Positions 895 to 2,108 of a DNA stretch of 23,210 nucleotides are shown piece after piece. The DNA lies in IMG/VR virus record IMGVR_UViG_2861069343_000008. One strand, given 5' to 3'. The DNA comes from a virus (taxonomy: Duplodnaviria > Heunggongvirae > Uroviricota > Caudoviricetes). Every line of letters starts with the position of its first letter. Within the stretch, counting starts at the first letter, position 1. Below the pieces are notes generated by a model, which was given only the letters and a program-made list of their open reading frames with translations, ran no database searches and had not been told where the DNA came from. The translations under genes and the position numbers were made by a program.

Positions 895-1602
895 TCAATG
901 TTCGCTTCCTGTTAACTGCCCGACAAGTGCAACCAGTTCGCTTACCTGATTTTCCAGAGTGGTGATCCGGGTGCCTGCTGTTGCCAGATTTTCACGTAAC
1001 GTTGTATTTTCCTCTTCCAGCGCGGTAACGCGATCATCTGTTTCACGGGCGACCTGAACAAGTAACCCCGTCACGGCGGAGTAGTCAACATTAAGATAGC
1101 GAGTTTCTTCGCGTAGCTCGTTGCCGTCAACGGTCGGACCTTGCAACTCTTCACCATAATGAGTAAACGATCCCACAGCTTCAGGTATCGCCTCCATTAC
1201 TTCCTGTGCAATAACGCCAGCATAAGGCATTCCGTTTTCCTTGAGCGTGTAGGTGTACCCGTTCATTTTACGGATTGCTTTCGTCGCGTCGCTGATAACG
1301 AGAATATCGTCTTTAAGGTCGCGGTCTGATGACTGATTCAGCGTTGTGCAATTAATAGCGCCATTTACATCAAACAACTGGCCTGCTGACGTTTTTTGCG
1401 CATAAAACAGATACGCAGCAGACGTTCCAACCTCAAAAACGTTTTGTCGAGTACTGGAACCCCACACCCTGACAGAAAACGGTAGTTCTGCATTACCTGA
1501 GTTCTGTAAAACAAAACGATTGCCAGTCCCTGATTGTTTTGTAAGGGTTAAATCAACTGTTGAGTTAACCTCATCCTTGTTGATAGTGAGCGCCTGCGCT
1601 TT
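895..1602 (-). pseudogene. Tail-fibre gene 3' remnant (C-terminal ~237 codons with a peptidase-S74-like intramolecular chaperone domain)
   Basis: Hand translation shows the minus-strand frame open from 1608 down to the stop at 895-897, with an in-frame stop at 1609-1611 just upstream. The product has an SDRDLK motif typical of auto-cleaving C-terminal chaperone domains of tail fibres and tailspikes. No N-terminal part and no start context; it abuts the Nu1 fragment. Confidence 0.6.
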
Positions 1603-2108
1603 ATCAGTTCATCCAGCGCGGCTGCTTTGTTCATGGCTTTGATGATATCCCGTTTCAGGAAATCAACATGTCGGTTTTCCAGTTCCGGAAAACGCCGCTG
1701 CACCGACAGGGGGATCCCGTCGAGAATACTGGCAATTTCACCTGCGATCCGCGACAGCACGAAAGTACAGAATGCGGTTTCCACCACTTCAGCGGAGTCT
1801 CTGGCATTTTTCAGCTCCTGTGCGTCGGCCTGCGCACGCGTAAGTCGATGGCGTTCGTACTCAATAGTCCCTGGCTGGAGATCTGTCTCGCTGGCCTGCC
1901 GCAGTTCTTCAACTTCCCGGCGCAGCTTTTCGTTCTCAATTTCAGCATCCCTTTCGGCATACCATTTTATGACGGCGGCAGAATCATAAAGCACCTCATT
2001 ACCCTTCCCACCACCCCGCAGAACGGGCATTCCCTGCTCCTGCCAGTTCTGAATGGTACGGATACTCGCGCCGAAAATGTCAGCCAGCTGCTTTTTGTTG
2101 ACTTCCAT
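1548..2108 (-). CDS. nu1: Terminase small subunit Nu1, C-terminally truncated and fused out of frame to tail-fibre DNA
   Basis: Residues 1-169 (MEVNKKQLADIFGASIRTIQNWQEQGMPVLRGGGKG...KAAALDELI) match lambda Nu1 as I recall it. The last 17 residues (KRRRSLSTRMRLTQQLI) are unrelated and are read from the tail-fibre remnant in another frame. Confidence 0.85.
   Translation of the reverse strand: MEVNKKQLADIFGASIRTIQNWQEQGMPVLRGGGKGNEVLYDSAAVIKWYAERDAEIENEKLRREVEELRQASETDLQPGTIEYERHRLTRAQADAQELKNARDSAEVVETAFCTFVLSRIAGEIASILDGIPLSVQRRFPELENRHVDFLKRDIIKAMNKAAALDELIKRRRSLSTRMRLTQQLI

What the first reader, a model, noticed from the sequence alone, without database searches (positions are those of the whole stretch)
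895..2108. Deletion junction fusing Nu1 codon ~169 to the 3' end of a tail-fibre gene; the entire morphogenesis region is absent
Nu1 matches lambda through residue 169, then the frame runs 17 codons into unrelated sequence and stops. Hand translation shows that sequence is the out-of-frame 3' portion of a tail-fibre gene, open from 1608 to 895 and carrying an SDxxLK chaperone-domain motif. So everything between the end of Nu1 and the last ~237 codons of the tail fibre (terminase large subunit, portal, capsid and tail genes) was removed in one event at about 1600-1605. This is the same scar architecture as the Nu1-homologue/tail-fibre fragments of E. coli cryptic prophages. It makes the element unable to form particles on its own.
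Basis: seen in the sequence. Interest (0 to 1): 0.55.

Follow-up and report, generated by a model that had tools for sequence, protein, structure and literature searches.

The report
Nu1–tail-fibre deletion scar, recurrent breakpoint
The window holds a decayed lambda-like prophage in which one deletion joined codon 169 of the DNA-packaging gene Nu1 to the last 235 codons of a tail-fibre gene; that is ordinary prophage decay, except that dozens of unrelated rearrangements in other bacteria break Nu1 at exactly the same nucleotide.

Summary
Identity to lambda cos-Nu1 runs to window 1602, which is lambda nt 697 and Nu1 codon 169. Identity to intact side-tail-fibre genes (mEp460, Ayreon, E. coli prophages) starts at window 1603. 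The two share only the dinucleotide TA. Nu1' is 169 aa plus 17 out-of-frame tail-fibre codons. The fibre remnant is 235 codons and carries a Peptidase_S74 chaperone domain. No head or tail genes lie between int/ybhC and the bio side, while cos is intact. The element is a cryptic lambdoid prophage at att-lambda. The window matches E. coli 042 except for an IS2 and the O/P region. The exact junction occurs in 188 of 5,426 complete E. coli genomes, where RefSeq already marks the fragments as partial. K-12 Qin (nohA-stfQ) has the same architecture at a different nucleotide. DLP12 breaks inside gene A. As a scar, this is ordinary.

Unexpectedly, the left breakpoint is not private. About 45 different rearrangements elsewhere end Nu1 at the same ...CTGATA. 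Their partners include W, A, B, C, E, FI, Z, V, K, I, J, lom, stf, tfa, an integrase, a host transporter and inverted DNA. The partner is preceded by TA in 18 of 23 mappable cases, against a 3% background. The cause is unknown, and I found no description of it.

The parts
2286..2297 (-). cosN (GGGCGGCGACCT), with cosQ-side and cosB-side sequence around it (about 2109-2400)
   Evidence: Identical to lambda cosN. Identity is 90/100 on the cosQ side and about 97% on the cosB side with a 1-nt indel. Phage records that start at cos align from window 2297.
1602..2108 (-). Nu1-derived part of the chimeric ORF (codons 1-169 of the lambda terminase small subunit)
   Evidence: 97-98.6% DNA identity to lambda-like phages, ending at window 1602. 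Pfam PF07471 E = 4e-101.
1602..1603 (-). Junction dinucleotide TA shared by both parents (lambda 696-697). It is the recurrent left breakpoint.
   Evidence: The same ...CTGATA end appears in loci L007, L008, L011, L013-L016, L018 and L019 and in 13 metagenome contigs.
1548..1601 (-). 17 codons plus stop of tail-fibre DNA read out of frame as the C-terminal tail of Nu1'
   Evidence: Translation and alignment.
895..1601 (-). 3' remnant of a side-tail-fibre gene. With the shared TA it is 235 codons plus stop. There is no start codon near the junction; the first in-frame GTG is at 1467.
   Evidence: RefSeq annotates it as 'tail fiber domain-containing protein, incomplete, missing N-terminus'.
1174..1329 (-). 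Peptidase_S74 intramolecular chaperone domain of the fibre remnant, containing SDRDLKDD
   Evidence: Pfam PF13884, aa 92-143 of the 235-aa remnant, E = 2.5e-13.
712..846 (-). C-terminal fragment (about 45 codons) of a tail-fibre assembly gene. It is an older scar, not part of this deletion.
   Evidence: Pfam Caudo_TAP profile positions 87-130 of 131. RefSeq marks it as a partial CDS. Ayreon has the same sequence downstream of its intact stf.
1..657 (+). ybcY-like class I SAM-dependent methyltransferase (cargo gene), followed outside the window by a second tfa fragment, a diguanylate cyclase, then ybhB-bioA
   Evidence: Pfam methyltransferase domains. 042 annotation. The annotated CDS starts 12 nt before window base 1.
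20526..21792 (+). xis and int at the other end of the prophage, abutting ybhC (21927 onward). This places the element at the lambda attachment site between ybhC and ybhB.
   Evidence: The ORFs are recognised as lambda-type xis and int from my own reading of their sequences; no alignment or Pfam scan was run on them. Their length classes match those of lambda xis and int. ybhB-bioA lie on the opposite flank in 042.

Best explanation
The feature is a deletion scar in a cryptic lambdoid prophage integrated at att-lambda. An ancestral prophage carried a lambda-type cos-Nu1-A packaging region and an mEp460/Ayreon-type side tail fibre with a self-cleaving S74 chaperone domain. It lost roughly 21 kb, from the 13th-last codon of Nu1 to codon ~968-1018 of stf. 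The size is an inference by analogy with lambda and mEp460 coordinates. The join used 2 nt of shared sequence (TA) and was therefore illegitimate, not homologous, recombination. The result is an element that keeps immunity, replication, Q, lysis genes and an intact cos. It has no terminase large subunit, head or tail genes, so it cannot make particles on its own. Two chimeric or truncated reading frames remain: Nu1(1-169)+17 aa, and a start-less fibre remnant. The junction was inherited or spread as a unit, since it is identical in 188 complete genomes. The left end of the deletion coincides with a strongly preferred breakpoint. In many independent rearrangements of lambda-type Nu1 genes the retained strand ends at ...CTGATA (lambda 697), and it is joined to sites that share at least the terminal TA. 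My reading is that a DNA 3' end forms preferentially at this position and is then joined or extended at ectopic sites with minimal terminal pairing, as in template switching or microhomology-primed repair. The junction structure and the recurrence are shown. The way the end arises is inferred and unresolved.
For: Breakpoint mapping. Intact parental fibre genes spanning the breakpoint. The chimeric query of mEp460 upstream sequence plus window downstream sequence is 99.8% identical over its full length in E. coli prophages. Domain content. Absence of morphogenesis genes, and the att-lambda location. cos intact. Population frequency of 188/5,426 genomes. Recurrence of the endpoint comes from four results. 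(1) Among the 120 best homologues of Nu1', identity to Nu1 ends at residue 169 in 42 clusters, at 170 in 8 and at 171 in 4. Only 5 end anywhere in 172-179. The tails comprise 30 or more different sequences. (2) All lambda-mappable tails map to the + strand, at sites spread from nt 751 to 22390. (3) DNA-level junctions in 10 loci all read ...GAACTGATA| (...GAAATGATA| in the diverged L019). (4) Thirteen metagenome contigs show 9 or more further partners. The partner is preceded by TA in 18 of 23 classes, against a 3.1% background. The script's uncorrected count of 15/23 already gives P = 8e-18. G at -4 occurs in 12 of 15.
Against: A single junction cannot prove one event. The parental phage is not available, so deletion size and exact microhomology rest on relatives that are 92-99.8% identical. 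For the recurrence: the protein list is ranked by score, so fusions with fewer than about 165 Nu1 residues are under-listed. Clusters are not events; for example, one Lom fusion appears as about 14 clusters. No nuclease, pause site, IS end, inverted repeat or stable hairpin was found at the site. The mechanism is therefore conjecture. One junction in a 75%-identical homologue could equally point to selection on the protein.
Confidence: 0.93

Rival explanations
1. The divergent Nu1 tail is a natural C-terminal variant and the downstream ORF (GTG 1467 to 895, 190 aa) is an intact small gene, so there was no deletion.
For: the ORF listing reports a 190-aa ORF with a GTG start. The S74 chaperone domain it contains is complete.
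Against: The tail codons and the whole ORF are colinear with the last 235 codons of 1,202-1,252-codon fibre genes, and the frame is open upstream of the GTG to the junction. RefSeq marks it partial. The Nu1 tail is the fibre sequence in another frame.
Confidence: 0.02
2. The junction arose by recombination between two different prophages or phages, for example a Nu1-side donor and a fibre-side donor, rather than by an internal deletion of one prophage.
For: The best phage matches for the two sides differ. The Nu1 side matches Stx1a phages and PhiR70_1 at 98.6%. The fibre side matches Ayreon and mEp460 at 92-95%. Rearrangements using the same endpoint can involve inverted or foreign DNA (L015, L016, L018, L019).
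Against: Both prophage ends sit at one locus, with int next to ybhC and the cargo genes next to ybhB-bioA, in the normal lambda order and orientation. Lambdoid phages are mosaics, so different best hits for different modules are expected.
Confidence: 0.05
3. The recurrent endpoint reflects selection, not a mutational hot spot. On this view, rearrangements that leave Nu1 residues 1-169 but remove the gpA-binding C-terminus and the ribosome-binding site and start of gene A are favoured. One possible reason is that a truncated Nu1 that still binds cosB interferes with related superinfecting phages. Another is that any residual terminase activity on the chromosomal cos is harmful.
For: The endpoint sits immediately upstream of the GGGG (700-703) and GTG (711) that I take to begin gene A. 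Reading GGGG as A's ribosome-binding site is my own inference. It is also used in a 75%-identical homologue. It occurs in deletions of 53 nt to more than 25 kb and in inversions. DLP12 nu1 is functional in lambda (PMC3945230), so Nu1 remnants can be active proteins.
Against: Protein-level selection cannot explain single-nucleotide precision, or the requirement for TA (and G at -4) in the partner. The tails range from 12 to about 150 aa of unrelated sequence. DLP12-type scars that keep about 100 codons of A exist and are common.
Confidence: 0.2
4. The fixed endpoint marks the former insertion site of a TA-duplicating or IS3/IS30-type insertion sequence. The IS produced nested adjacent deletions and inversions and was then lost.
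For: A fixed end with variable partners, the occurrence of both deletions and inversions, and a shared TA all resemble transposon-mediated adjacent rearrangements.
Against: None of about 45 junction classes retains an IS end or any common sequence at the join. No inverted repeat of the terminal sequence exists in the window. Neighbouring classes use overlaps at 698-703 (CC, CCGG, GGGG), which a transposase would not give.
Confidence: 0.07

Closest known systems
Qin cryptic prophage of E. coli K-12, nohA-stfQ junction
   Same: A lambda-type cos and Nu1 homologue is fused directly to the 3' part of a side-tail-fibre gene, with A through J missing. The Nu1 frame runs on into out-of-frame fibre sequence (NohA is 176 + 13 aa). 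The left flank has the same ynfO (DUF3950) and ydfO (DUF1398) genes.
   Different: The breakpoint is different, at lambda nt 719 rather than 697. The microhomology is probably 6 nt (AATATA); this is inferred, as no intact parental stf was examined. The fibre type is different: 320 codons, no S74 domain, followed by intact tfaQ and pinQ. In Qin the first three codons of gene A are fused in frame to stfQ. The chromosomal site is different (ydfJ rather than att-lambda). A metagenome contig joins the 697 endpoint to the very same stfQ nucleotide (L026).
DLP12 cryptic prophage of E. coli K-12, nohD-aaaD-tfaD
   Same: It retains lysis genes, ylcI, cos and Nu1 but lacks morphogenesis genes. It has the same tfa-ybcY-tfa cargo arrangement downstream.
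   Different: nohD is a complete 181-aa Nu1. The break is at lambda nt 1018, inside gene A, and is joined to tfa at lambda 22119 with a 3-nt overlap. No fibre fragment is present. The prophage lies at a different chromosomal locus from att-lambda.
Side tail fibres with a C-terminal intramolecular chaperone (Peptidase_S74), as in phages mEp460 and Ayreon
   Same: The last 235 codons are 92-95% identical at DNA level, including the SDxxLK cleavage motif and the coiled-coil end.
   Different: Only about one fifth of the gene is present. The N-terminal tail-attachment and shaft parts and any nearby start codon are missing.
Microhomology-mediated illegitimate recombination and template switching in bacteria
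   Same: Junctions have 0-6 nt of shared sequence, and the partners lie at any distance and in either orientation.
   Different: Such events are normally scattered. Here one partner is fixed to the nucleotide in dozens of independent events, and the other must end in TA.

Membership tests
Lambda terminase small subunit Nu1 (Pfam PF07471) | Full-length match to the Phage_Nu1 profile, including the N-terminal winged-helix DNA-binding domain | tested here: met
   Profile positions 1-164 of 164, 335.8 bits against a cut-off of 30. Residues 1-169 are near-identical to lambda Nu1.
Lambda terminase small subunit Nu1 (Pfam PF07471) | Intact C-terminus (residues 170-181, part of the gpA-interaction region known from the lambda literature) and an adjacent terminase large subunit gene | tested here: not met
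   Residues 170-181 are replaced by 17 unrelated residues. No gene A lies in the window or its flank.
Peptidase_S74 self-cleaving tail fibre / endosialidase chaperone family | S74 domain with the Ser-Lys motif (SDxxLK) | tested here: met
   PF13884, 50.5 bits against a cut-off of 22. SDRDLKDD is present.
Peptidase_S74 self-cleaving tail fibre / endosialidase chaperone family | A fibre or spike body N-terminal to the chaperone, with a translation start | tested here: not met
   Only 91 residues precede the domain. Codons 1 to about 967 of the mEp460-type gene are absent, and there is a stop 2 codons upstream of the junction in this frame.
Cryptic lambdoid prophage with a Nu1-to-tail-fibre deletion scar (Qin type) | cos and Nu1 homologue directly abutting a 3' fibre fragment, with no A through J genes | tested here: met
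Cryptic lambdoid prophage with a Nu1-to-tail-fibre deletion scar (Qin type) | Same junction by descent as Qin or DLP12 | tested here: not met
   The junctions are at lambda 697 (window), 719 (Qin) and 1018 (DLP12), with different partners and loci.
Helper-dependent cos-packaged element (satellite-like) | Functional cos plus a size between cos sites that a helper capsid can package, and demonstrated transfer | not testable with these tools
   cosN, cosQ and cosB sequences are intact. Packaging and transfer need experiments.

The most novel reading that the evidence does not exclude
Lambda nt 697, the last base of Nu1 codon 169 and immediately 5' of CCGGGG, is a site-specific fragile point of lambda-type packaging genes. 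A 3' DNA end is generated there by an unidentified activity. Candidates are aberrant terminase nicking at a cosN-like TAC(C)GGGG sequence, a replication pause, or another nuclease. That end is joined to any site ending in (G)NTA. This would make it a major, previously undescribed route by which lambdoid prophages lose their virion genes while keeping cos and Nu1.
Probability: 0.4. Interest if true: 0.75.

Novelty: new variant of a known kind. Interest (0 to 1): 0.5.

Why it matters
The scar itself only documents how one E. coli lineage's att-lambda prophage became defective, and RefSeq already flags the fragments as partial. What could matter is the recurrence. If prophage inactivation in enterobacteria often proceeds through one nucleotide-precise breakpoint, then prophage 'domestication' is partly a directed process rather than random decay. 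The retained cos-Nu1(1-169) module would then deserve testing, either as a substrate for helper-phage packaging or as an interfering protein. The site also offers a ready natural system for studying how a fixed DNA end is joined by 2-nt pairing in E. coli.

Tried and rejected
(1) Natural variant C-terminus or intact small gene: rejected by colinearity with full-length fibre genes.

(2) Hairpin or cruciform at the breakpoint: no significant inverted repeat, and the fold z-score is 0.11.

(3) Transposon end: there is no inverted copy of the terminal 18 nt in the window, and no common IS-like sequence at about 45 junctions.

(4) Deletion-only slippage: rejected as the sole mechanism, because L018 and L019 join the same end to inverted DNA.

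(5) Chi-like octamer GCTGGATG (lambda 682-689), which might stop RecBCD just left of the break. I considered it, but it matches Chi at only 6 of 8 positions and is further degraded in the diverged homologue that still uses the endpoint. I left it as unlikely.

(6) Int secondary site, Hin/Gin/Pin or resolvase sites, type I restriction sites, and CCNGG restriction. I compared these by eye from memory. None fits both the fixed end and the TA partner. None was tested formally.

(7) Literature: four full-text searches found nothing on a Nu1 breakpoint. PMC3945230 shows only that DLP12 nu1, R and Rz work in lambda, and that cos stimulates recombination nearby.

(8) My first right-site table had three coordinates off by 1-2 nt (Z8065, J16137, stf21849). 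I corrected the count by hand from 15/23 to 18/23.

Full report
**What the window is**

The 23.2-kb window is one lambdoid prophage read from its bio-proximal side. ORFs I recognise as lambda-type xis and int lie at 20526-21792 and are followed by ybhC. Those three identifications rest on my own reading of the sequences, not on an alignment or a Pfam scan. The window is 100% identical to E. coli 042 over bases 1-11890. The one exception in that stretch is an IS2 present in 042 at about window 5376-5380. In 042 the low-coordinate side continues through a second tfa fragment and a diguanylate cyclase to ybhB-bioA. The element therefore sits between ybhC and ybhB, which I know to be the lambda attachment site. 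Neither the ORF lists nor the RefSeq annotation of 042 shows any terminase large subunit, portal, capsid or tail gene.

**Checking the observation**

- **Nu1 part.** The ORF at 1548-2108 (- strand) translates to lambda Nu1 residues 1-169, then KRRRSLSTRMRLTQQLI and a stop. Pfam Phage_Nu1 matches over its whole length.
- **Two parents.** A megablast of window 660-2300 against phage genomes splits cleanly. Query 1-699 matches cos-Nu1 of lambda-like phages at 97-98.6% identity. Query 695/698-1641 matches the 3' end of the side-tail-fibre genes of Ayreon (92.6%) and mEp460 (94.7%).
- **Breakpoint.** Ungapped three-way alignment puts the last lambda-identical base at window 1602. That is lambda nt 697, the third base of codon 169 (ATA). 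The first fibre-identical base is at window 1603, so the parents share only TA.
- **Independent check.** An 80-nt query across the junction gives the same limits in E. coli genomes. Nu1-only hits stop at query base 40 and fibre-only hits start at base 39.
- **Intact parental fibre.** I built a chimeric query from 300 nt of mEp460 upstream of the breakpoint plus 300 nt of the window downstream. It is found uninterrupted at 99.8% identity in intact E. coli prophage fibre genes. The fibre sequence is therefore continuous across the breakpoint in the parental gene type.
- **Fibre remnant.** In the fibre frame the remnant is 235 codons. These are mEp460 codons 968-1202 and Ayreon codons 1018-1252. 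It contains a Peptidase_S74 domain with SDRDLKDD. A stop lies two codons upstream of the junction in this frame. The first possible start is GTG 1467.

**What lies around the junction**

- **cos is intact.** cosN (window 2286-2297) is identical to lambda. The cosQ side is 90% identical and the cosB side about 97% identical.
- **Upstream genes.** These are ynfO/ylcI-like (DUF3950) and ydfO/ybcV-like (DUF1398) genes, then the lysis cassette.
- **Downstream tfa fragment.** A 45-codon C-terminal fragment of a tail-fibre assembly gene lies at 712-846, next to a ybcY-like methyltransferase. The Ayreon match runs through this tfa remnant, and Ayreon is a viable phage. That scar therefore predates the deletion and belongs to the fibre module.

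**Population and comparison**

The exact junction is present in 188 of 5,426 complete E. coli genomes. There PGAP annotates 'DNA-packaging protein', 'tail fiber domain-containing protein (incomplete)' and 'tail fiber assembly protein (incomplete)'.

- **Qin (K-12).** nohA (189 aa) is Nu1 1-176 plus 13 out-of-frame stfQ codons. The architecture is the same. The nucleotide (lambda 719), the fibre type and the locus all differ.
- **DLP12 (K-12).** nohD is intact. Lambda homology ends at nt 1018 inside gene A, joined to tfa at lambda 22119 with a 3-nt overlap.

**The unexpected part**

While mapping other truncated copies for comparison, I found that several end lambda homology at the same base.

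- In a spread sample of E. coli genomes, cos-Nu1-A homology ended at query positions 429, 699, 701, 710, 958, 1020, 1282 and 1762.
- Three RefSeq loci were mapped at base level. L007 is Nu1 to Z at lambda 8065. L008 and L012 are Nu1 to J at 16137. L011 is Nu1 to J at 17306. All retain ...GAACTGATA and share TA (or TACC, or GATA) with the partner.
- I then searched the protein collection with Nu1' and scored where each of the 120 best hits departs from lambda Nu1. The counts are 42 clusters at residue 169, 8 at 170, 4 at 171 and 2 at 168. Only 5 depart anywhere in 172-179, and about 16 in 129-165.
- The tails are 30 or more different sequences. By tblastn they map to lambda A, B, C, E, FI, Z/U, V, K, I, J, lom, stf and tfa. 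All of these are on the + strand, at positions from 751 to 22390.
- Other tails are an integrase fragment of an inserted island carrying a TIR gene (L015) and a host MFS transporter beyond the prophage end (L016). Two more are inverted prophage DNA (L018, L019), the second in a Nu1 homologue only 75% identical at DNA level.
- A metagenome scan for the 24 nt ending in CTGATA followed by any base except C returned 13 contigs with at least 9 different partners. One joins this endpoint to the very stfQ nucleotide used in K-12 Qin.

Partner sites show a clear pattern.

| Measure | Result | Background |
|---|---|---|
| Partner preceded by TA, lambda-mappable classes | 18 of 23 | TA is 3.1% of dinucleotides in lambda 700-23000 |
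| G at position -4 | 12 of 15 | 31% G |

The 18/23 figure follows correction of three coordinate slips. The script's uncorrected 15/23 already gives P = 8e-18. Neighbouring classes at residues 170-171 use overlaps CC, CCGG, TACC and GGGG, which lie at lambda 698-703.

**Interpretation**

The window's junction is an ordinary illegitimate deletion in form. Its left end, however, belongs to a recurrent class.

The pattern has four features: a fixed retained end ...CTGATA, partners that must match the terminal TA, weaker matching further 5', and either orientation at any distance. This is what one expects if a 3' end forms preferentially at lambda 697 and is then annealed and extended, or ligated, at ectopic sites.

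I could not identify what makes the end. There is no hairpin, no transposon-like repeat and no IS remnant at any junction. Several ideas remain conjecture:
- resemblance of TACCGGGG to the nicked left half of cosN (TTACG|GGGC);
- position immediately 5' of what I take to be the ribosome-binding site and start of gene A;
- a weak Chi-like octamer 8 nt to the left.

Selection for a Nu1(1-169) product may contribute. It cannot give single-base precision or a TA requirement in the partner.

Caveats: the protein list is score-ranked and cluster-redundant, the census is not exhaustive, and the parental sequences are inferred from relatives.

**Function of what remains**

Loss of autonomous particle formation follows directly from the gene content. 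Whether Nu1' is made, binds cosB or interferes with other phages was not tested. Neither was mobilisation of the intact cos by a helper. DLP12's nu1 is functional in lambda (PMC3945230). This shows such remnants can be active, but Nu1' lacks the last 12 residues.

**Verdict**

- As a scar it is a new member of a well-known kind, and it is already flagged by automatic annotation.
- The recurrence of its left breakpoint is, as far as four literature searches and my own knowledge go, undescribed. It is the reason for the middling rather than low interest score.

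Noticed in passing
lambda nt 694-703 = window 1596-1605; loci L007, L008, L011-L016, L018-L032: About 45 independent rearrangements of lambda-type Nu1 genes share the window's left breakpoint (...CTGATA). Partners range from W to tfa and also include an integrase, a host transporter and inverted DNA. The partner site is preceded by TA in 18 of 23 cases and has G at -4 in 12 of 15. 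The cause is unknown.
   Followed up: partly
L006 (K-12 Qin) 4799-4848; L026: In K-12 Qin the first three codons of gene A (GTG AAT ATA) are fused in frame to stfQ, so StfQ is annotated as starting at A's own start codon. A metagenome contig (L026) joins the 697 endpoint to the same stfQ nucleotide, so two different left ends meet one right end.
   Followed up: partly
window 712-846 and L002 (Ayreon) 4837-5028: A 45-codon C-terminal remnant of a tail-fibre assembly gene follows the S74-type fibre gene in the viable phage Ayreon as well as here. This suggests that fibres with a built-in chaperone displaced an older stf-tfa pair and left the stub behind.
   Followed up: partly
window about 5376-5380 and 11890-12430: E. 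coli 042 carries an IS2 inside the AraC-like gene region that the window lacks. Beyond window 11890 the window differs from 042: an O-like 179-aa ORF directly abuts ren, with no P gene visible. The replication module of this copy therefore seems to carry its own deletion or replacement.
   Followed up: no
L015 4001-6000: In one E. coli assembly, Nu1(1-169) is fused in frame to the C-terminal 116 residues of an integrase. An AlpA-like gene and a TIR-domain (CAP12-PCTIR) gene follow, then a J fragment. A small defence-type island sits inside the decayed prophage.
   Followed up: no
L009, L011 versus L006 (Qin locus in three strains): The Qin prophage has decayed differently in different strains: Nu1 nt 237 to J 16347, Nu1 nt 507 to J 17306, and Nu1 nt 529 to stfQ. 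Two of the strains share a second junction, J 17608 to a tail-fibre fragment about 207 nt long.
   Followed up: partly
lambda 17302-17316 (gene J) and 2175-2188 (gene A): The J sequence GATAACGGGGCGCAC is joined to Nu1 GATACCGGGG in three different registers (P0043, L011, P0030). It resembles the left half of cosN. The A sequence ATTAAAGGGGCATCC is likewise used in two registers (L032, P0002).
   Followed up: no
window 5053-7811 and 10025-11034: The prophage carries several cargo genes: an AraC-type regulator, a YbgA-family protein, a lipocalin, and a YajG-like lipoprotein pair between ren and the nin region. A diguanylate cyclase lies just outside the window in 042.
   Followed up: no
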